Shown piece by piece: positions 13,776-38,904 of a stretch of 64,000 nucleotides of DNA (positions are counted from its first letter, which is position 1; each line of letters begins with the position of its first letter). Position numbers and translations under genes: made by a program. Source of the DNA: Candidatus Moraniibacteriota bacterium (GTDB lineage Bacteria; Patescibacteriota; Minisyncoccia; Moranbacterales; UBA1568); NCBI GenBank assembly GCA_016699385.1, contig CP064974.1:806791-870790 (forward strand), given 5' to 3'. The notes below the pieces were generated by a model. It ran no database searches. It saw nothing but the letters and a program-made list of their open reading frames with translations, and was not told where the DNA came from.

Positions 13776-14243
13776 CTACAAAACTCGCTGAATCTTGATG
13801 CCATATACACCTCCAATGAACTGGGGCGACAGATAACCAAAATCGAGCATCACTTGAATCAGACCGGGAAATATCGGAACCTTTTTTCTTTTACATCGGA
13901 GAAGATTCCCTGGCGTCGCCCATTGGTATTCGCTATGCTCCGCCGGATTCAAGACAACATTCGGCAGAGTCGGCAGAGCAATTTCATAGGAAGCATATTC
14001 CCACAAACCATCAACGCCATAATCAAGGCGATGCGATCCAAGCGGGTGCAATATATTCAAATTCACCACTATACCAGTTTCCTCCCGAAGCTCTCGCCGT
14101 GCTGCTTCCTGGATACTTTCATCTGCGTCTACCTTTCCCCCAGGGAGACCCCAGTATCCACCTGCTACTCTCAAAAGAACAAGGATATCATCTTCATACC
14201 ACACGAACACGCCTACAGCTTTTCTATATACGCCGTCGTGCAT
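13776..14243 (-). CDS. NUDIX hydrolase
   Basis: Nudix box GLPGGKVDADESIQEAARRELREETGI. Confidence 0.85.
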   Translation of the reverse strand: MHDGVYRKAVGVFVWYEDDILVLLRVAGGYWGLPGGKVDADESIQEAARRELREETGIVVNLNILHPLGSHRLDYGVDGLWEYASYEIALPTLPNVVLNPAEHSEYQWATPGNLLRCKRKKVPIFPGLIQVMLDFGYLSPQFIGGVYGIKIQRVL

Positions 14244-14276
14244 TTTCTCTACTCCTCTTACTAAAGAACTGCATTG

Positions 14277-14807
14277 TTATTTCGACACGCGATACAAACA
14301 CCACGCCGAGAGAAATCGACTGTTCTCAATCTCGCCCTTTTTAATCATCGCTTCAATCTCTTCCTCCGTAAACCAAAAACTCTCGATCGCGCCTTCTTCT
14401 TCTGGATCGGGCGGAAGCGAAGCTTCTTCCAATTCTTCACCAAGGAAAACATACATCCGACCCTTCGACTTGCGATGATCATAGTAGTAATCCCCAAGTG
14501 CCGTGAGTCTCTCCGCTCGATATCCAGCCTCTTCCATGAGTTCGCGATTCGCTCCCACATCAACACTTTCATCTGCAAGGAGGAGTCCTCCCGGAAACTG
14601 ATAGAGATGCTCGTTTGCCGGATAAGAATATTCCTTCTGAACAAGGACACTCCCGTCAGGGCGACGACAAATCACCGTTGCGCCATCAACGATATGCTTT
14701 GAGTAAAGATATGTAAGCCGGACGCCGCTTGGGAGTTCGACTTCGTCTTCAATTAATGTCACCCGTGGATGATCGAACACTTCCCGAGATGAGAGTTTTT
14801 TCCACAT
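14277..14807 (-). CDS. NUDIX hydrolase (ADP-ribose pyrophosphatase-like)
   Basis: Nudix box GGLLLADESVDVGANRELMEEAGY. Second of two tandem Nudix genes. Confidence 0.85.
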   Translation of the reverse strand: MWKKLSSREVFDHPRVTLIEDEVELPSGVRLTYLYSKHIVDGATVICRRPDGSVLVQKEYSYPANEHLYQFPGGLLLADESVDVGANRELMEEAGYRAERLTALGDYYYDHRKSKGRMYVFLGEELEEASLPPDPEEEGAIESFWFTEEEIEAMIKKGEIENSRFLSAWCLYRVSK

Positions 14808-14890: not shown

Positions 14891-16228
14891 ATGAATGCAA
14901 GCATCTTCAAAGCCTATGATATACGAGGCGTATACGGAAAAGATTTCGACGAGTCCGACGCCTATGCAATCGGTCGCGCAACCGTCGAAGTACTGAAGTT
15001 CAAAACCATCGCCCTCGGGCGTGATGCGCGAGTATCGAGCCCCGTGCTCTTTGAATCATTTGCAAGAGGTGCGAGAGAGAGTGGCGCAAATGTGATTGAT
15101 CTCGGACTCCTCACAACACCCATGGTGTATTTCGCTTCATGGAAACTCAACGTCGATGCTGCCGTTTCTATCACTGCCTCTCACAATCCACCGGAATACA
15201 ACGGACTGAAAATCGCCCAGAAGAACGCTCTCCCTGTCGGAGAGAAAAGCGGACTTTTCGATATTCGCGACCGCGTGATAGCGGGAACATTTGAAAATCG
15301 TGAAACAACAGGAACACTCTCGACACAAGATATAAAACCTGACTACTACAAACATTTCGCCTCATTTGCAAAACTTGGCGAGAAGAAATTCAAAGTTGTC
15401 ATCGACTGCGCCAACGCGATGGGTGCGCTCGAACTCCCCATTTTCAAAATGTTTCCGAAGAACATCGAGATCGTCACCATGTATGACGACCTCGAGCACC
15501 CCTTCTCAACACACGAAGCCAATCCCCTGAAAACCGAAACACTCAATGAACTCCGCACACGCGTCGTTTCAGAACACGCCGACCTCGGCATCGCCTTCGA
15601 CGGTGATGCCGATCGCGTTGGCTTCGTAGACGAAACAGGTGCCATTATTCCCATGGATCACATGACTGGCATTATTGCGCGAGAAGTGCTCAAGTCTCAT
15701 CCAGGCGCGACGATCCTCTACGACCTCCGCTCCTCGAGAGCTGTGAGAGAGGTGATTGAAGAAGTAGGTGGCATTGCCAAGGAATGCAAAGTCGGGCACG
15801 CCAACATCAAACAGCAGATGCGTGACGACACCGCAGTTTTCGCTGGCGAACTCTCCGGTCACTACTACTTCCTCGAAAACTCCTACGCCGAAGCCGGCTC
15901 ACTCGCAGCCCTCATGATCCTCTCCGTGATGAGTGAAACCGGGCAATCGGCGTCCAATCTCGAACGCGATTTGAAACGCTACTTTCACTCGGGAGAAATA
16001 AACAGCGAGGTCGAGAATAAAGACGAGATAATTAAAAAACTCGAGCAGACCTATTCCGATGGGAAAATCTCGCATCTCGACGGCGTCAAGATAGATTTCC
16101 CTAACTGGTGGCTCAATGTCCGCCCATCCAACACCGAGCCACTCCTGCGCCTCAACCTCGAAGCCGACACGGAAGCACTCATGATTGAGAAACGCGACGA
16201 GGTGCTGGGGATTATACGAAAGAAATAA
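14891..16228 (+). CDS. phosphomannomutase/phosphoglucomutase (alpha-D-phosphohexomutase family)
   Basis: MNASIFKAYDIRG start. Active-site TASHNP motif (SITASHNPPEYNGLK). Metal-binding DGDADR. The ORF opens at 14729 and overlaps the upstream Nudix gene, but the conserved start is ATG 14891. Confidence 0.9.
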   Translation: MNASIFKAYDIRGVYGKDFDESDAYAIGRATVEVLKFKTIALGRDARVSSPVLFESFARGARESGANVIDLGLLTTPMVYFASWKLNVDAAVSITASHNPPEYNGLKIAQKNALPVGEKSGLFDIRDRVIAGTFENRETTGTLSTQDIKPDYYKHFASFAKLGEKKFKVVIDCANAMGALELPIFKMFPKNIEIVTMYDDLEHPFSTHEANPLKTETLNELRTRVVSEHADLGIAFDGDADRVGFVDETGAIIPMDHMTGIIAREVLKSHPGATILYDLRSSRAVREVIEEVGGIAKECKVGHANIKQQMRDDTAVFAGELSGHYYFLENSYAEAGSLAALMILSVMSETGQSASNLERDLKRYFHSGEINSEVENKDEIIKKLEQTYSDGKISHLDGVKIDFPNWWLNVRPSNTEPLLRLNLEADTEALMIEKRDEVLGIIRKK

Positions 16229-16233
16229 TCTTC

Positions 16234-16650
16234 ATGTCTATGACATTTTCCCATCCGGCTATGAATCTACAGAAAAAGAAACCGATTATCTTCACAGCGC
16301 TCTCGAAAAAATACTTCTACATGAGAATGCTGATCGTGAAATATGTTTTGGAGAATGAAAGTGTACCAATCAATCCATTCATGTCATTCGACTACTATCT
16401 TGCAGATACCGTTGAGAGAAACATAATCCGAAACGCCAACAATAATCTCGTAGCACTCGCAGACGAACTCTGGGTATTCGGATCAATAAGTAACGGCGTC
16501 ATGGCAGAAATACGACAAGTTCAGAACATGAAAAAACCCATTCGTTTTTTCACCATAGAAAACGATCAAGATATTACAGAAATTTCAAGAGACAGGCTCG
16601 TTTTCGAAGACGGTATGGAAGCATTTAAAAAAGAGCTGAAGGATCTATGA
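16234..16650 (+). CDS. small Rossmann-like protein, nucleoside 2-deoxyribosyltransferase/DNPH1-like (NDT-like; possibly DUF4406), paralog of 17975..18373
   Basis: 138 aa. Motifs PIIFTALSK...DYYLADTVERN...LVALADELWVFGSISNGVMAEIRQVQNMKKPIRFF resemble NDT-family (YxAGPxF ... aDxvvA ... DsGTxfExG ... KP). Clear paralogy with the minus-strand gene at 17975..18373. Alternative start at 16261. Confidence 0.6.
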   Translation: MSMTFSHPAMNLQKKKPIIFTALSKKYFYMRMLIVKYVLENESVPINPFMSFDYYLADTVERNIIRNANNNLVALADELWVFGSISNGVMAEIRQVQNMKKPIRFFTIENDQDITEISRDRLVFEDGMEAFKKELKDL

Positions 16651-17616
16651 TTCAAAAAGTCCTCCTTGCTTCCCCACGCGGGTTTTGCGCTGGTGTCGCG
16701 CGCGCGGTGAAGACGGTCGAGGATACGCTCGATATTTTCGGGGCACCCGTCTATATCAAGCACGAAATCGTCCACAACAAAACAGTGGTCAAGAATCTCG
16801 AAGATCGCGGTGCAATTACCGTCGATAGCGCCGAATCGATACCAGAACACTCCGTAGTCGTCTTCTCCGCACATGGTTCTCCGCCCGAAGACTACGAAAT
16901 CGCACACGCAAAAAATTGCACCGTGATTGACGCGACATGCCCCCTCGTCAACAAGGTTCATCTCGAAATGCACCGCTTCTTGAAAGATGGTTTCTCTGTC
17001 ATCTATATCGGCCACAAGGGTCACCCCCGAAGGAATCGGTGTCACTGGTGAATCGCTTCACGCGTACCACAAAGTCGTCCCCATTATCGAAAATGTCACC
17101 GACATCAAGTTGCTCAATTTTAGAAAGGACGAAAAAATAGCATACCTCACGCAGACAACACTGAGCGTCACGGAGACGGAAGATATCATTCGCGCACTCA
17201 CAGAAAAATATCCAAACATCACAGCGCCGCCCGGAAAGGATATCTGCTACGCAACCACCAATCGACAATCCGCCGTTCGCGCACTCGCAAAAGTTTCCGA
17301 TATCGTGCTCATCGTCGGCTCGAAAAATTCGTCCAACTCCACCCGCCTCGCTGAAACCGCACGCGCCGAGAATATCCCCGCCTACCTCATAGACAGTGCA
17401 AATGACATTGATTCCACATGGCTCGAAGGTATCGCAACGATTGGCGTAAGCGCCGGCGCGAGCGCTCCTGAATCAAGGGTCCAGGAAATCGCCCGGTATT
17501 TCGAAAATTTCGGTGCAATCACTGAGGAATTTACGACTATACATGAAACTACTCGATTCGCAGAACCGCTAGAACTCACAGCAATCAAGAAAAGGCATCG
17601 TTCCGAAAAATTATGA
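16647..17616 (+). pseudogene. ispH: 4-hydroxy-3-methylbut-2-enyl diphosphate reductase IspH/LytB, interrupted by a +1 frameshift in a C5 run (17044-17048); pseudogene or sequencing error
   Basis: N-terminal ORF 16647..17051 (SPRGFCAGVARAVKTVE...YIGHKGHP) and C-terminal ORF 16987..17616 (EGIGVTGESLHAYHKVV...TTNRQSAV...GSKNSSNS). Conserved IspH reads GHKGHPEGIG, so a C4 rather than C5 run would restore a single ~322-aa protein. Confidence 0.75.
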
Positions 17617-17925
17617 AGGAAACCTGAAAGAAAAAAGTAATAATCCTAAAAATTGGAGGAATACCATCACACAAAAAAACAAAAAATACTCCCTATTCTT
17701 TCGAAGAAATAGGTCAAATTTTGATAGGAATGTCAATATTTACATTGCGCTATTTTTCCTCTACACTGGAATTGGATGGCCTTCAGAACAGAGGTTCGAC
17801 AAATTGAATCCCCCTTGGTTTCCAGGGAAAAAGAGCGATTTTTTTTCCGACAATATCATACTCTGGGATTCAGACGTTCCTCTCGCATTGAGGGCTTTTC
17901 CCTTTCCACAAACAATCTATCAAAA

Positions 17926-17947
17926 ACCGCTCCAAAGCGGTTTTTTC
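17926..17947. terminator. probable bidirectional terminator (AACCGCT/AGCGGTT stem plus T6)
   Basis: Short GC stem flanked by A5 upstream and T6 downstream, between ispH (+) and the NDT-like paralog (-). Confidence 0.45.
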
Positions 17948-17974
17948 TTTCTCAAGATTCATCGAGATAAATCT

Positions 17975-18373
17975 CTATTCCACACCGCTTTCATATTCCA
18001 CTTGTGTCTGAGAAATTTCCACAATGCGATGTGGTTTTTTGATAGCAAAGTAACGAATCGGTTTGCCAAGTGATTCGGCAACACAGATCTCCTTGGCAAC
18101 TCCTTCCGACACCGGACCAAAAATCCACAGCTCATTGGAACGTGCCACAAGCACATTATTCGCCTCGATCATAAATTTCCGGTCTACGGTGTCGAGAAGG
18201 AAATAGTCATAGAGAGTGAAGACGGTGAGTGGTATCCGCTTCGCCTCCAAAATATATCGCGTAATAAACATCCGATAGCAGAACGATCGCTTCGACATTG
18301 CTGCAAATACCACCGGAATATCCGCCCGAAATCGCGGCTTCATGCGCTTCTTTTGTTTTTCCATTACAACCAT
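17975..18373 (-). CDS. small NDT/DNPH1-like Rossmann protein, paralog of 16234..16650
   Basis: 132 aa. VVFAAMSK...LYDYFLLDTVDRK...VLVARSNELWIFGPVSEGVAKEICVAESLGKPIRYF aligns colinearly with 16234..16650. Confidence 0.6.
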   Translation of the reverse strand: MVVMEKQKKRMKPRFRADIPVVFAAMSKRSFCYRMFITRYILEAKRIPLTVFTLYDYFLLDTVDRKFMIEANNVLVARSNELWIFGPVSEGVAKEICVAESLGKPIRYFAIKKPHRIVEISQTQVEYESGVE

Positions 18374-18408: not shown

Positions 18409-19407
18409 CTACCCCCGCACAAAACCAACTCTTTCTTTCACCTCGAACATTTTCCGACCGGCAACCTCACGTGCCTTCTCGGCGCCATCGCGAAGGATTC
18501 GAAGCGCATCCTCATCGGAAATCGCATGGAGCTTCTCTTGGAAATCCGCAAGAAAAAGAGCAACCACTTCAGCGAGATCTCGCTTGAAATCCGCATAGCC
18601 CTTCCCAACATATCGCGCCACCACCTCTTCGGTCGGGAGATTCCCAAGGAGCGAATAAATATTGATGAGATTTTTGAGCGCGGGCTTCTCCTCAGAATAA
18701 AGAATTTCTGCCCCCGAATCCGTCACTGCTTTCATGATTTTTTTCTTTGCCATGTCCGGTTCGTCATTTAGCGCAATATAATTATATTCCGAACTCGCTG
18801 ACTTCGACATCTTCTTTGCCGGATTGTCGAGTCCCATGATAAGCGCCCCTTCTTTGGAAAGTTTCCCCTGCGGAACGACAAAGGTTTTGCCAAATTGCTT
18901 ATTAAATCGATCCGCGAGATCTCGTGCAAGCTCCACATGCTGCATCTGATCTTTCCCTACTGGCACTGCCACCGTATCGTACAACAAAATATCTGCTGCC
19001 ATGAGAACCGGGTACGTAAAGAGTCCAACGCTCGATCCAGTCGACTCACCTTTTTGTGATTTATCTTTGTACTGCGTCATCCGTTCAAGTTCTCCCATAC
19101 GCGCAATTGTATTGAGAATCCATCCGAGTTCCGAGTGTTCTCGCACATGCGACTGGACAAAAAGCGTTGACTGCTTCGGGTCGATACCGGCAGCAAGATA
19201 AATCTTTGCTATCTCAAGTGTGCGCTTGCGGAGCTCTTTGGGATCCTGTGGCACGGTAATTGCGTGAAGGTCGACAACGCAAAAAATTGCATCATGCGTT
19301 TCTTGCAATTCGATCCACTGCTTGATTGCCCCCAAATAATTCCCAATATGCAAATTCCCCGACGGCTGAATGCCCGAGAAGATTCGTTGTTTGTCCATAA
19401 CTTCCAT
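18409..19407 (-). CDS. trpS: tryptophan--tRNA ligase
   Basis: Class I motifs: HIGN variant (PSGNLHIGNYLG) and KMSKS (KKMSKS). 332 aa. Confidence 0.95.
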   Translation of the reverse strand: MEVMDKQRIFSGIQPSGNLHIGNYLGAIKQWIELQETHDAIFCVVDLHAITVPQDPKELRKRTLEIAKIYLAAGIDPKQSTLFVQSHVREHSELGWILNTIARMGELERMTQYKDKSQKGESTGSSVGLFTYPVLMAADILLYDTVAVPVGKDQMQHVELARDLADRFNKQFGKTFVVPQGKLSKEGALIMGLDNPAKKMSKSASSEYNYIALNDEPDMAKKKIMKAVTDSGAEILYSEEKPALKNLINIYSLLGNLPTEEVVARYVGKGYADFKRDLAEVVALFLADFQEKLHAISDEDALRILRDGAEKAREVAGRKMFEVKERVGFVRG

Positions 19408-36549: not shown

Positions 36550-38904
36550 TCAAGAAGACGTTGCTTGCTCTGCACGAGAAAACCACCGAGCAAGGGCATA
36601 TTGAAGTCCTCCATATGCTACCATAACCAGGAAAAAGCGCACGAAAAGGGGAGGGGATACCGGCGGAATATCTATTTCAAAAAAACGCAAGACAAATGGA
36701 ATTTGGAGCATTACCGGAAGCAGCACGACTTCGAACACGACCAACATTCCAAGATTTCTCACTTCCGAAGACGCGAGTTTCCCTCGAAAGACTCGCGGAA
36801 CAAACAAAAAGAAAATGAATCCGAGAATAAGCGAAGCGAGCACAATCAAAAAATTCGACGGTGCGGATTTTAGCTGGTCACTGCTCATCGCAAAAATAAA
36901 TGCGAGTGCGAGAGTCTGCAGAAACGACGAAGAAACAACAAACGGCAGAATTTTCCGAAGAAAGTTCCCTGCATGTGCCGCAACCGCCTTCCCTGCCGGA
37001 CGAATCGTCCAATAGGAAATGAGAATGCTTGGGAAACCAATGGTGAAATAATTCACCAGCGTCATATTGAGCGGCGTAAGTGGAAAGGCATAGCCCAAGA
37101 CACTCACCCATATAAAGAAGAAAAATCCCGTAAACGAGAAGCTGAAGAAAATGCTCGCAAAAATCTCGGCATTCTTGATAATACTGTCTGCCAATTCTAC
37201 ACCCCCCGGAAGCGCCGTGAAGCTATTGTTCGTCAGCACAATCGAGGCAACCTGCCGCGTCGCGGGCGCCCCTTCAAACATCGCGATACCGAGGTCTGAC
37301 TTCTTGAGTGCGAGCGCATCATTGGCACCGTCCCCCACCATCGCCGTGAACCCATCGGTCTTCAACGCTTCGACGATTTTTTCTTTCTGCTCGGGAAAAA
37401 TCCGCGCAAAAATCGTTGTGCCCTGCACGCGCTCATTAAATTCCTCTTCTGTCCACTGCGCAATATCCGCGCCCGTCACCGCCAGTTCGACATGATCAAC
37501 ACCTGCCGACCGAGCAATCGCGCGCACGGTGTCCACATTGTCGCCCGAGAGTATGCGAATACGAACGCCTCGTTTTTGGAAAAATTCGACAGCATCTCGG
37601 ATACCCGGACGGAGCTCACTCGAAAGCACAAAGACACCGAGCAATGAGAGTTTCGTCTGTGCGATATCTTTCGGAATGTTGTTACCCTTAGCTGTCGCAA
37701 GACAGAGAAGTCGCTTCCCGTCACGTGCCTCGCGCAAGAGCAAATCCTGAAGCCACGACTGTTCCGTGACAGAAAGAAGCTGTGGCATAACCACCTCCGC
37801 CGCACCAACAAGGAGTGTCGTCACCTCTCCCGAAACTTCCTTAAATGAGACCGCGCCAAATCGACGCCACGAAGAAAACGGGAGTGCATCGAGCACTCCT
37901 CCACTATCCCCGTGAGGTGCGATAAACTTCCGTACAGCGAGAGCCGTTTGCGACGTATCATGCGTCCCATCGAGATACACCATCATGTGTTCAAAAACCC
38001 GCGCTTCCGATACGCTCTCCGGCGACAAAAATCGCTCCGTTGTAAGACCGTTCTCACACAGTGTCCCCGTCTTATCCATGCAAAGATTTTTGATTCGTCC
38101 AAGCTTCTCGGTCGCATTCACCTCTTGCAAGAGCACATGTCGCTGAAACAAATGTGCCGCTCCATACGCGAAGAGAAGCGTCATGCCAAATGCGAGTCCC
38201 TGTGCCACGATAACACTCGCAAGCGCACCCACGTGCTTCACAATGCTCACATTCGACTCGTGTGTCAAAACTCCACGCGCCACCGCAAAGAGAACGACGA
38301 CGACGAGCACGTACCCGGAATACCGAATAACCGTACTCACCGATTTCTGAATTGGACTCTCGGCAACTGCGGAACGCTGTATCCCCTCGGTCATGCGCGC
38401 GATACGGCTCTCAGCAAAGACTGTCTCCGCGCGCATCAAACCAGAGCCGGAAGTGATAATACTCCCCGCAAGCACGCGCTCCCCTGCGCCGCGCGGCAAA
38501 GACGCCGACTCGCCCGTAATCAAACCCTCATTCAATTCGAGAGACTCCGATGATACCAGCGTGCCATCGCAGGGCACCTGATCACCTATGCCAAGCTGAA
38601 GCGTGTCTCCTTTGCGAATATCTTCCGTCATCACAGATTCCTCCTGTCCGTCTCGTATGCGCTTCACGTGAGGCGCCGTCAAAAGCTGGAGCTTTTCGAG
38701 CGCGCTCCATGCACGGATATCCTGTGCAAGACCAAGCGCCATATTCACCACCGTCACGAGCCCCAAGAACACTCCTGCCTGCCGATCACCAAAGACAAAA
38801 AGCAACCCTACGACAGTCAAAATGACGCCATTCGTCAGGAGAAACACGTTCCGCGAAACGATATACCACAAATCACGGAGTTTTTTCGCGCGTGGTGACA
38901 CCAT
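36550..38904 (-). CDS. cation-transporting P-type ATPase (E1-E2, P2/P3-like)
   Basis: TGES actuator motif, DKTGTLCENGL phosphorylation site, GDGANDALALKKSDLGIAM hinge, and 8-10 TM helices. Confidence 0.9.
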   Translation of the reverse strand: MVSPRAKKLRDLWYIVSRNVFLLTNGVILTVVGLLFVFGDRQAGVFLGLVTVVNMALGLAQDIRAWSALEKLQLLTAPHVKRIRDGQEESVMTEDIRKGDTLQLGIGDQVPCDGTLVSSESLELNEGLITGESASLPRGAGERVLAGSIITSGSGLMRAETVFAESRIARMTEGIQRSAVAESPIQKSVSTVIRYSGYVLVVVVLFAVARGVLTHESNVSIVKHVGALASVIVAQGLAFGMTLLFAYGAAHLFQRHVLLQEVNATEKLGRIKNLCMDKTGTLCENGLTTERFLSPESVSEARVFEHMMVYLDGTHDTSQTALAVRKFIAPHGDSGGVLDALPFSSWRRFGAVSFKEVSGEVTTLLVGAAEVVMPQLLSVTEQSWLQDLLLREARDGKRLLCLATAKGNNIPKDIAQTKLSLLGVFVLSSELRPGIRDAVEFFQKRGVRIRILSGDNVDTVRAIARSAGVDHVELAVTGADIAQWTEEEFNERVQGTTIFARIFPEQKEKIVEALKTDGFTAMVGDGANDALALKKSDLGIAMFEGAPATRQVASIVLTNNSFTALPGGVELADSIIKNAEIFASIFFSFSFTGFFFFIWVSVLGYAFPLTPLNMTLVNYFTIGFPSILISYWTIRPAGKAVAAHAGNFLRKILPFVVSSSFLQTLALAFIFAMSSDQLKSAPSNFLIVLASLILGFIFFLFVPRVFRGKLASSEVRNLGMLVVFEVVLLPVMLQIPFVLRFFEIDIPPVSPPLFVRFFLVMVAYGGLQYALARWFSRAEQATSS

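What the first reader, a model, noticed from the sequence alone, without database searches (positions are those of the whole stretch)
16234..18373. Inverted pair of paralogous small NDT/DNPH1-like Rossmann proteins flanking ispH
The 138-aa (+) and 132-aa (-) proteins are colinear paralogs (IFTALSK/VVFAAMSK; DYYLADTVERN/DYFLLDTVDRK; ELWVFGSISNGVMAEI/ELWIFGPVSEGVAKEI; KPIRFF/KPIRYF). They carry the motif pattern of nucleoside 2-deoxyribosyltransferase/DNPH1-type N-glycosidases (conserved Glu after a G-x-G/S-x-G turn). They are arranged head-out around ispH (the DMAPP/IPP-forming enzyme) with a 360-nt ORF-free spacer. The function is unknown. One candidate is nucleotide or nucleoside N-glycosidase activity, possibly acting on modified (for example isoprenylated) nucleotides, but this is speculative.
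Basis: partly seen in the sequence, partly recalled or inferred. Interest (0 to 1): 0.55.

Follow-up and report, generated by a model that had tools for sequence, protein, structure and literature searches.

The report
Two NDT-fold nucleotide-glycosidase-like paralogs (DUF7768)
Two small paralogous genes on either side of ispH in a Candidatus Moraniibacteriota genome belong to the uncharacterised family DUF7768, which has the fold and key glutamate of nucleoside deoxyribosyltransferase/DNPH1 enzymes and most likely cleaves or swaps bases on nucleotides for salvage; the position next to ispH looks incidental.

Summary
ORF A (16234-16650, +, 138 aa) and ORF B (17975-18373, -, 132 aa) are colinear paralogs (44% identity, E 1e-38) flanking ispH. 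Both pass the Pfam threshold for PF24963 (DUF7768), a family with no literature in the searched library.

Elsewhere, DUF7768 domains are fused to NUDIX, MazG, phosphoribosyltransferase and HAD domains, or sit beside Ham1, HIT and NUDIX genes. The family occurs mainly in host-dependent lineages (Patescibacteria, DPANN, Chlamydiae, Babeliales) and in phages. My best reading is an N-glycosidase or transferase acting on nucleoside 5'-monophosphates in salvage or pool sanitation. This is inferred, not shown.

The ispH link is not supported: ispH lies nearby in only 3 of 80 species-level loci, all close relatives. No other locus has two copies. A follows PGM/PMM and B follows trpS, so they belong to two convergent units.

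The "empty" spacer holds a conserved candidate small RNA. The ispH frameshift is a one-base homopolymer difference from a near-identical contig.

This is a new member of a known kind and of moderate interest.

The parts
16234..16650 (+). Paralog A, 138-aa DUF7768 protein (NDT-superfamily fold). Candidate active-site residues are F20, N69/N70, S86 and E92. It starts 5 nt after the PGM/PMM stop, and its stop overlaps the ispH start (ATGA).
17975..18373 (-). Paralog B, 132-aa DUF7768 protein, 44% identical to A. It keeps F, N-N, S-E-G-V-x-x-E. It lies 35 nt downstream of trpS on the minus strand.
   Evidence: ORF. BLASTP E 1e-38. PF24963 42.4 bits. It has its own ortholog group, P0117-P0128, at 75-93% identity. 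The B-type ortholog lies directly after trpS in L013-L015.
16647..17616 (+). ispH (LytB), read here as two overlapping ORFs because of one extra C in the C-run at 17024-17028. Probably a sequencing or assembly error, or a strain-level pseudogene.
   Evidence: The LYTB profile is split 1-117 / 117-265. ispH is intact at 317-327 aa in relatives and at 322 aa in the 99.96%-identical L097, which differs by a single-base gap.
17739..17945 (+). Candidate small RNA gene inside the 'spacer'. It comprises a promoter-like TTTACA-17-TACACT (17739-17767), a conserved ~130-nt rod-like hairpin core (about 17774-17906) and terminator hairpins (17880-17894; 17922-17945 plus a T-run).
   Evidence: blastn 81-87% identity to L009/L017, L013 and L021, with tblastx hits in all frames. 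Four more metagenome copies. Alignments. RNAalifold gives 42 pairs, 2 of them with compensatory changes. MFE -45.4 kcal/mol, z -3.2. Promoter and terminator scan. No Rfam, tRNA or tmRNA match.
14891..16228 (+). PGM/PMM-family phosphohexomutase or phosphopentomutase-like gene (445 aa from the Met conserved in relatives). It is the upstream partner of A in the same transcription direction.
   Evidence: Pfam PGM_PMM I-IV. PGM-A adjacency is conserved in L009, L011, L017, L018, L021 and L097.
13776..14807 (-). Two tandem NUDIX hydrolase genes (13776-14243 and 14277-14807), divergent from PGM/PMM.
   Evidence: Pfam NUDIX E 1e-20 and 2e-19. The same genes occur in relatives.
18409..19407 (-). trpS (tryptophanyl-tRNA synthetase), the upstream partner of B on the minus strand.
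   Evidence: Pfam tRNA-synt_1b E 1e-79. trpS-B adjacency in L013-L015 and L097.

Best explanation
A and B are two diverged copies of a small stand-alone enzyme of the nucleoside 2'-deoxyribosyltransferase (NDT) superfamily. They belong to a Patescibacteria/DPANN-type branch of Pfam DUF7768.

Proposed mechanism, by analogy with DNPH1, MilB and DmtZ (inferred):
- Glu92, at the start of the helix after the fourth strand, attacks C1' of a nucleoside 5'-monophosphate.
- It is positioned by the beta1 aromatic residue (Phe20, which is Tyr in about 40% of the family) and by the invariant Asn69/Asn70 pair.
- The base is released and a covalent (deoxy)ribosyl-5-phosphate-enzyme intermediate forms.
- That intermediate is resolved by water (N-glycosidase) or by another base (transferase).

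Physiological role (inferred): salvage or sanitation of scavenged nucleotides in organisms that depend on a host for nucleotides. The enzyme would act downstream of NTP pyrophosphatases such as NUDIX, MazG and Ham1.

Genomic arrangement: the two genes belong to two convergent transcription units, PGM/PMM-A-ispH and trpS-B. Lying on either side of ispH is a feature of local synteny, not of function.

Shown here: paralogy, family membership, fold, residue conservation, domain fusions and taxonomic distribution. Inferred: catalysis, the phosphate-bearing substrate, hydrolase versus transferase, and the physiological role.
For: - Family: both proteins pass the PF24963 threshold. A phage-type DUF7768 protein (142.6 bits) aligns to A at E 1e-12, putting its beta1 Tyr on F20.
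- Sequence links: PHROG 355 NDT at E 3e-5 and 6e-5. The DUF7768 domain of P0252 cross-hits PF05014 over positions 6-102/117 at E 1.5e-3. hhalign against a PF05014 protein gives 46 columns at E 1.6e-3.
- Active site: E92 is present in 129/135 domains, G88 in 131, N69 in 128 and N70 in 111. Position 20 is only F or Y. Position 86 is only S or A and never Asp.
- S86-x-G88-V-x-x-E92 matches DNPH1 S98-L-G-V-G-Y-E104. S98 (MilB S97) binds the 5'-phosphate (PMC10603095). Nucleoside-specific NDTs have Asp at this position (CtNDT D82, PMC10913048).
- Asn in place of the triad Asp is catalytically competent: CtNDT D62N keeps ~50% efficiency (PMC10913048), and DmtZ uses a Tyr-Asn-Glu triad (PMC12884076).
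- Fusions: NUDIX+DUF7768, DUF7768+MazG, PRTase+DUF7768, HAD+DUF7768 and tandem DUF7768.
- Neighbours: PRTase, HIT, NUDIX, Ham1 and PF05014 genes. Two NUDIX genes lie next to the A operon in this window.
- Precedent: the phage NDT-like DmtZ is fused or adjacent to a Dut-like dNTPase, and the pair converts dATP to adenine (PMC12884076).
- Distribution: 312 species genomes, labelled mostly Saccharibacteria and other Patescibacteria, plus DPANN archaea, Chlamydiae and Babeliales.
Against: - No biochemical data exist for any DUF7768 member (no paper mentions it).
- Profile-profile similarity to DNPH1 is not significant (hhalign probability below 1%, E 0.07). A and B do not hit PF05014 themselves. 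No PDB relative is found by sequence.
- Residue equivalences rest on short motif alignments and secondary-structure order. I could not superpose coordinates.
- The Asp-equivalent is ambiguous between N69 and N70.
- A conserved D/N at position 87 next to S86 could instead mimic the 5'-OH-binding Asp of nucleoside-specific NDTs.
- The canonical beta1-alpha1 loop is deleted in this subfamily.
- Gene contexts are highly variable, so guilt by association is weak.
- A large branch of the family is fused to an FAD oxidoreductase in a defence-island context. The domain may therefore serve other roles.
Confidence: 0.5

Rival explanations
1. A and B are classical nucleoside 2'-deoxyribosyltransferases. 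They would exchange bases between free deoxynucleosides, not nucleotides, to balance the deoxynucleoside supply.
Against: With the G88 anchor, the position equivalent to the 5'-OH-binding Asp is S or A in all 135 domains, as in the nucleotide-specific DNPH1, MilB and DmtZ (PMC10603095, PMC12884076). NUDIX and MazG fusions yield monophosphates, not nucleosides. Conserved basic residues K25 and R31 at the beta1-alpha1 junction suit a phosphate.
Confidence: 0.15
2. The pair works with ispH, for example as LOG-like or DNPH1-like N-glycosidases acting on isoprenylated (N6-isopentenyl) nucleotides made from DMAPP.
For: A's stop overlaps the ispH start, and this overlap is kept in close relatives. 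DNPH1 binds N6-isopentenyl-AMP as an inhibitor (PDB 4kxm appears among the Foldseek hits). B has a sub-threshold SLOG cluster4 hit (E 0.06).
Against: ispH is within 5 kb in only 3 of 80 species-level loci, all close relatives with the same PGM-A-ispH synteny. In L009 other genes separate A from ispH. In L013 the slot is filled by Bro-N and Ham1 genes with no A. No isopentenyltransferase appeared among recurrent neighbours. The fusions are to NUDIX, MazG, PRTase and HAD, none to isoprenoid enzymes.
Confidence: 0.04
3. A and B are non-catalytic or signalling or conflict proteins. They could be nucleotide-binding sensor or regulatory subunits, or TIR/SLOG-like NAD(P)/nucleotide-cleaving effectors of a defence or toxin system.
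Against: A and B give no PADLOC hit. They sit among housekeeping genes in a reduced genome. NDT-family hits outrank TIR. The near-invariance of E92, G88, N69 and W80 in stand-alone proteins argues for a conserved catalytic site. The fusion partners of the CPR-type proteins are metabolic nucleotide enzymes.
Confidence: 0.12

Closest known systems
DNPH1 (Rcl) / MilB / BcmB: NDT-superfamily nucleoside 5'-monophosphate N-glycosidases
   Same: Small (~130-160 aa) alpha/beta fold. Glu nucleophile in an S-x-G-V-x-x-E motif. Uncharged Ser at the 5'-phosphate position. Aromatic residue on beta1 (Phe in MilB, Tyr in DNPH1). Proposed role in nucleotide-pool sanitation downstream of an NTP pyrophosphatase (PMC10603095).
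   Different: No significant sequence similarity (hhalign probability below 1%). Asn-Asn replaces the triad Asp. The Gly-rich beta1-alpha1 loop (GSIRGGR) is absent. The dimer and the second-subunit phosphate contacts were not tested. The substrate is unknown.
DmtZ of Z-genome phages (NDT-like dAMP hydrolase / deoxyribose-5-phosphate transferase)
   Same: Aromatic-Asn-Glu triad variant. No Asp or Asn at the 5' position. Occurs fused or adjacent to a dNTP pyrophosphatase, paralleling the NUDIX/MazG-DUF7768 fusions. A protein of Gordonia phage Ghobes, the phage in which DmtZ was characterised, is among the BFVD structural hits; it is annotated there as deoxyuridine triphosphatase (PMC12884076).
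   Different: A different sequence family. DmtZ serves phage DNA modification. Here the genes are chromosomal in a symbiont-type bacterium.
Nucleoside 2'-deoxyribosyltransferases (LlNDT, CtNDT, PDT; Pfam PF05014)
   Different: A and B do not reach PF05014. The 5'-OH-binding Asp is replaced by Ser/Ala. The triad Asp is replaced by Asn. The C-terminal Tyr and second-subunit elements are not evident.
Phage-type DUF7768 (the core of Pfam PF24963) and DUF4406
   Same: Same Pfam family. Shared (E/D)-(L/V)-W-V-F-G-x-I-S-(N/D)-G-x-x-A-E-I motif.
   Different: Phage-type proteins score ~140 bits and keep an NDT-like 'Y-I-C-S-P-F-S-G' beta1 loop. A and B score ~40 bits, lack 12 residues of that loop and instead have (F/Y)-T-A-x-S-K.
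LOG / SLOG and TIR domains
   Different: No PGGxGTxxE motif. The SLOG hit is sub-threshold. There are no PADLOC hits.

Membership tests
Pfam PF24963 (DUF7768) | Whole-protein HMM score at or above the curated gathering cut-off (26 bits) | tested here: met
   A 38.5 bits and B 42.4 bits. All 116 + 40 database homologs carry PF24963.
NDT superfamily (NDT / PDT / DNPH1 / MilB / DmtZ) | NDT-type alpha/beta fold (parallel sheet flanked by helices) as the best structural match | tested here: met
NDT superfamily (NDT / PDT / DNPH1 / MilB / DmtZ) | Catalytic Glu nucleophile early in the helix that follows strand beta4 | tested here: met
   E92 is present in 129/135 domains and lies in helix 87-98 after strand 78-82. 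It aligns to DNPH1 E104 and to the PF05014 Glu. Caveat: this rests on motif alignments, not on superposition.
NDT superfamily (NDT / PDT / DNPH1 / MilB / DmtZ) | Triad Asp (LlNDT D72, DNPH1 D80, CtNDT D62) | tested here: not met
   The equivalent position is Asn (N70, N69). Asn occurs naturally in DmtZ and TbPDT, and CtNDT D62N stays active (PMC12884076, PMC10913048). The strict feature therefore fails, while a known variant is matched.
NDT superfamily (NDT / PDT / DNPH1 / MilB / DmtZ) | Triad Tyr on strand beta1 that positions the Glu | tested here: inconclusive
   Position 20 is F in 76 and Y in 53 domains of the family, and F in both A and B. It aligns to the Tyr of phage-type DUF7768. MilB has Phe here and prefers ribonucleotides (PMC10603095).
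NDT superfamily (NDT / PDT / DNPH1 / MilB / DmtZ) | Significant sequence-profile match to PF05014 | tested here: not met
   A and B give no PF05014 hit. Only sub-threshold links exist: P0252 at 19.1 bits against a cut-off of 28.8, hhalign E 1.6e-3 at probability 16%, and PHROG 355 at E ~5e-5.
NDT superfamily (NDT / PDT / DNPH1 / MilB / DmtZ) | Dimer (or hexamer) with active sites completed by the neighbouring subunit | not testable with these tools
   Natural tandem DUF7768 fusions, some with a Glu-less N-terminal half, hint at dimers. The single-sequence AF2 run of tandem P0154 failed (pLDDT 32.6).
DNPH1/MilB-type nucleotide N-glycosidases | Uncharged Ser (not Asp) six residues before the Glu, contacting the 5'-phosphate | tested here: met
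   Position 86 is S in 93 and A in 36 of 135 domains and is never Asp. It aligns to DNPH1 S98. The role of S98/S97 is taken from PMC10603095.
DNPH1/MilB-type nucleotide N-glycosidases | Hydrolysis of the N-glycosidic bond of (d)NMPs | not testable with these tools
   This needs an enzyme assay. Only indirect support is available, from the NUDIX, MazG, PRTase and HAD fusions.
LOG / SLOG | PGGxGTxxE motif and a family HMM match | tested here: not met
   B alone gives a sub-threshold LDcluster4 hit (13.3 bits against a cut-off of 26.3). The motif is absent from both sequences.
Known anti-phage defence proteins (PADLOC, TIR/ThsB) | Match to a defence-system model, or a defence-island context | tested here: not met
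   A and B give no PADLOC hit. Their neighbours are housekeeping genes. The FAD-fused branch of the family does sit in a defence island.

The most novel reading that the evidence does not exclude
The CPR/DPANN-type DUF7768 proteins could be a symbiont-specific functional counterpart of DNPH1. They would be nucleotide-pool sanitising N-glycosidases (or phosphoribosyl base-exchange enzymes) that let host-dependent microbes with no de novo nucleotide synthesis strip modified or unwanted bases from scavenged NMPs and dNMPs and recycle the sugar phosphate. In this genome, A and B would form a heterodimer or cover two different base specificities.
Probability: 0.25. Interest if true: 0.6.

Novelty: new member of a known kind. 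Interest (0 to 1): 0.4.

Why it matters
Patescibacteria, DPANN archaea, Chlamydiae and Babeliales must live on scavenged nucleotides. How they sort, interconvert and clean that supply is poorly known. A widespread, uncharacterised NDT-superfamily enzyme repeatedly fused to NUDIX, MazG, PRTase and HAD domains is a concrete, testable candidate for that step. NDT-family enzymes are also useful biocatalysts for making nucleoside and nucleotide analogues.

For this window specifically, the result removes a tempting but unsupported link to isoprenoid metabolism. It also shows that the 'pair' is two independent transcription units.

Tried and rejected
- Sequence searches of A, B and the family profile against PDB chains found nothing relevant.
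- NCBIfam gave no hit and PADLOC gave no hit.
- hhalign of the family profile against LlNDT gave only a spurious 9-column hit. Against DNPH1 it gave only 19-25 columns around the Glu motif, which is not significant.
- The DNPH1 homolog search returned only vertebrate sequences. The DNPH1 profile was therefore shallow.
- The afdb50 fold library was unavailable.
- Single-sequence AF2 of the natural tandem fusion P0154, run to look at domain packing, failed with pLDDT 32.6.
- Rfam (three searches) and ARAGORN found no known RNA family in the spacer.
- A weak tblastn hit of A at 38740-38859 lies inside a 784-aa membrane-protein ORF and is spurious.
- The paper PMC3585086, on engineering NDT to accept phosphorylated substrates, is not held.
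- I considered and rejected the idea that the inverted arrangement is a designed module: no other two-copy locus exists.
- I considered and rejected the idea that the ispH frameshift is programmed: it is a single C in a homopolymer that is absent from a 99.96%-identical contig.
Full report
OBSERVATION

BLASTP of A against B gives 44% identity over 113 ungapped residues, E 1e-38. A six-frame HMM scan and tblastn find no third copy in the window.

The genes are convergent around ispH. A starts 5 nt after the stop of a PGM/PMM-family gene, and its TGA overlaps the ispH ATG. B starts 35 nt after the trpS stop on the other strand. The organism is a Candidatus Moraniibacteriota bacterium (Patescibacteria), judging by the names on near-identical proteins and loci.

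FAMILY AND FOLD

- Both proteins pass the curated threshold of Pfam PF24963, DUF7768 (38.5 and 42.4 bits against a cut-off of 26).
- They have no NCBIfam, PADLOC or PDB-sequence match. No paper in the searched library mentions DUF7768.
- They hit PHROG 355, 'nucleoside 2-deoxyribosyltransferase', at E 3e-5 to 6e-5.
- An AlphaFold2 model of A built on 62 homologs is confident (pLDDT 94.6, pTM 0.87).
- Foldseek gives MilB, NDTs, DNPH1 and BcmB. In BFVD it gives phage NDTs and phage 'DUF7768 domain-containing' proteins.
- A phage-type DUF7768 protein from an IMG/VR contig scores 142.6 bits over the full Pfam profile and aligns to A at E 1e-12. A and B are therefore divergent members of a family whose Pfam core is phage-like.
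- One family member's DUF7768 domain cross-hits PF05014 end to end at a sub-threshold score.

ACTIVE SITE

In 135 non-redundant family domains:
- The nearly invariant residues are P45 (134/135), W80 (134), G88 (131), E92 (129), N69 (128), G83 (126), S24 (124) and E78 (123).
- Position 20 is only Phe (76) or Tyr (53).
- Position 86 is only Ser (93) or Ala (36).

I recalled the DNPH1 and LlNDT sequences from memory and verified them against the PDB. Profile comparisons with them are not statistically significant. Every local alignment, however, places S86-x-G88-V-x-x-E92 on DNPH1 S98-L-G-V-G-Y-E104. The comparison with a PF05014 protein (46 columns, E 1.6e-3) additionally places N70 on that protein's Asp.

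From the literature:
- The NDT-superfamily triad is Tyr/Asp/Glu (DNPH1 Y24/D80/E104), and DNPH1 S98 / MilB S97 bind the 5'-phosphate (PMC10603095).
- MilB has Phe instead of Tyr and prefers ribonucleotides (PMC10603095).
- DmtZ uses Tyr/Asn/Glu, lacks Asp or Asn at the 5' position, and is a dAMP hydrolase / deoxyribose-5-phosphate transferase (PMC12884076).
- CtNDT D62N keeps about half its efficiency, and CtNDT D82, six residues before E88, contacts the 5'-OH (PMC10913048).

DUF7768 therefore shows an aromatic/Asn/Glu variant of the triad, with a nucleotide-type (uncharged) residue at the 5' position.

Caveats:
- I could not superpose coordinates.
- The Asn equivalence is ambiguous by one residue.
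- D/N87 is conserved next to S86.
- The canonical beta1-alpha1 loop is 12 residues shorter in this subfamily.

CONTEXT AND DISTRIBUTION

An exhaustive profile search of 1.84 billion representative proteins finds 1164 hits at E below 1e-3. Of the top 150, 60 are 190 aa or longer. Their architectures are:
- tandem DUF7768, in some of which the N-terminal half has lost the Glu;
- NUDIX+DUF7768;
- DUF7768+MazG;
- phosphoribosyltransferase+DUF7768;
- HAD+DUF7768;
- DUF7768 plus a PF05014-like domain;
- a large group of roughly 570-aa FAD-oxidoreductase+DUF7768 proteins.

Stand-alone homologs sit in variable contexts. These repeatedly include PRTase, HIT, NUDIX and Ham1 genes and, in oral-type Saccharibacteria, a PF05014 gene two genes away, with ligA upstream.

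A pattern scan of one genome per species finds 312 genomes. Those listed are mostly Saccharibacteria and other Patescibacteria, plus DPANN archaea, Chlamydiae/Parachlamydiales and Babeliales. Some records are labelled 'Gammaproteobacteria' or 'Bdellovibrionales' but have CPR-like contexts and small contigs, so I treat those labels with caution.

The fusions to enzymes that make or use nucleoside monophosphates, together with the DmtZ/Dut-like precedent (PMC12884076), are the main basis for proposing a (d)NMP N-glycosidase or transferase in salvage or sanitation. This step is inference.

THE ispH LINK AND THE 'PAIR'

- In close relatives, A-type orthologs keep the order NUDIX-NUDIX / PGM-A-ispH (L011, L012, L017, L018, L021, L097). 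In L009 two extra genes separate A from ispH.
- B-type orthologs (P0117, 93% identical) sit directly after trpS in L013-L015. There the PGM-to-ispH slot holds Bro-N and Ham1 genes and no A.
- Among 80 species-level loci, only three have ispH within 5 kb. None has a second DUF7768 copy within 5 kb.

The arrangement in this window is thus two convergent units that happen to meet at ispH. It is found again only in the near-identical L097. I found nothing to support isoprenylated-nucleotide chemistry.

SIDE FINDINGS

1. ispH frameshift. The split is caused by one extra C at 17024-17028 relative to L097. L097 is 99.96% identical over 8.4 kb and encodes an intact 322-aa ispH. The only other differences are two synonymous changes in B.

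2. Candidate small RNA in the spacer.
- It has a promoter-like site at 17739-17767.
- The ~130-nt core is conserved at 81-87% DNA identity in four related genome loci and in four metagenome contigs, with hits in all reading frames.
- It folds into a long rod-like hairpin: 42 pairs, two with compensatory changes; MFE -45.4 kcal/mol, z -3.2.
- It is followed by terminator hairpins whose distal stem differs in sequence between loci but stays palindromic.
- No Rfam family, tRNA or tmRNA matches.
- Supporting calls: 81-90.

3. FAD-DUF7768 fusion. P0423 lies in an overlapping four-gene operon, after a Septu-like PDC-M62A/B pair and before a PNP-domain effector-like protein. An MmeI-type restriction-modification gene and a Lamassu LmuB fragment are adjacent. 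The domain has therefore also been recruited to apparent defence islands.

VERDICT

The NDT-superfamily interpretation is supported at the level of fold and catalytic Glu. The precise family is DUF7768, and the ispH-based functional idea is not supported. The most likely function is an N-glycosidase or transferase acting on nucleoside monophosphates for nucleotide salvage or sanitation (confidence about 0.5). It is a new, uncharacterised member of a known enzyme kind and of moderate interest.

Noticed in passing
window 17739-17945 (+): Candidate clade-specific small RNA gene in the 'ORF-free' spacer. It has a promoter-like site, a ~130-nt rod-like hairpin core conserved at 81-87% DNA identity in eight related loci (two compensatory pairs, z -3.2) and terminator hairpins. 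It has no Rfam, tRNA or tmRNA match. It stays downstream of ispH in relatives.
   Followed up: partly
window 17024-17028: ispH is frameshifted by one extra C in a C5 run. A 99.96%-identical Logan contig (L097) has C4 and an intact 322-aa ispH. This is most likely a homopolymer sequencing or assembly error, or a strain-level pseudogene.
   Followed up: yes
L098 1922-8415 and L099 (same layout): A 570-aa FAD-oxidoreductase::DUF7768 fusion sits in an overlapping four-gene operon. Upstream is a Septu-like PDC-M62A/B pair (PADLOC E 1e-53 and 1e-40). Downstream is a 569-aa PNP_UDP_1 'PN-superfamily effector'-like protein. An MmeI-type restriction-modification gene and LmuB_C flank the operon. This may be an uncharacterised extended defence system.
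   Followed up: partly
P0154-P0159 (proteins): These are natural tandem DUF7768-DUF7768 proteins. In P0158 and P0159 the N-terminal half has lost the conserved Glu. That suggests an obligate dimer with one degenerate site, and raises the possibility that A and B heterodimerise.
   Followed up: partly
L009 6445-7197; L013 9044-10553 (slot between PGM/PMM and ispH): The slot between PGM/PMM and ispH is variable in this clade. It holds A alone, A plus Bro-N and a small ORF, or Bro-N plus a Ham1-type ITPase with no A. The spot appears tolerant of small gene insertions.
   Followed up: no
L033-L096 (Saccharibacteria loci): In 31 Saccharibacteria loci the DUF7768 gene lies directly downstream of NAD-dependent DNA ligase (ligA). 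In 13 near-identical oral-type loci a PF05014 NDT-like gene lies two genes downstream. In about 15 loci a DUF1653-containing protein follows.
   Followed up: partly
L019, L020, L022 and other records: Several MAG records carrying close homologs are titled 'uncultured Gammaproteobacteria' or 'Bdellovibrionales'. They nevertheless share 66-79% identical A orthologs, and L018 also shares CPR synteny. The deposited taxonomic labels look unreliable.
   Followed up: no
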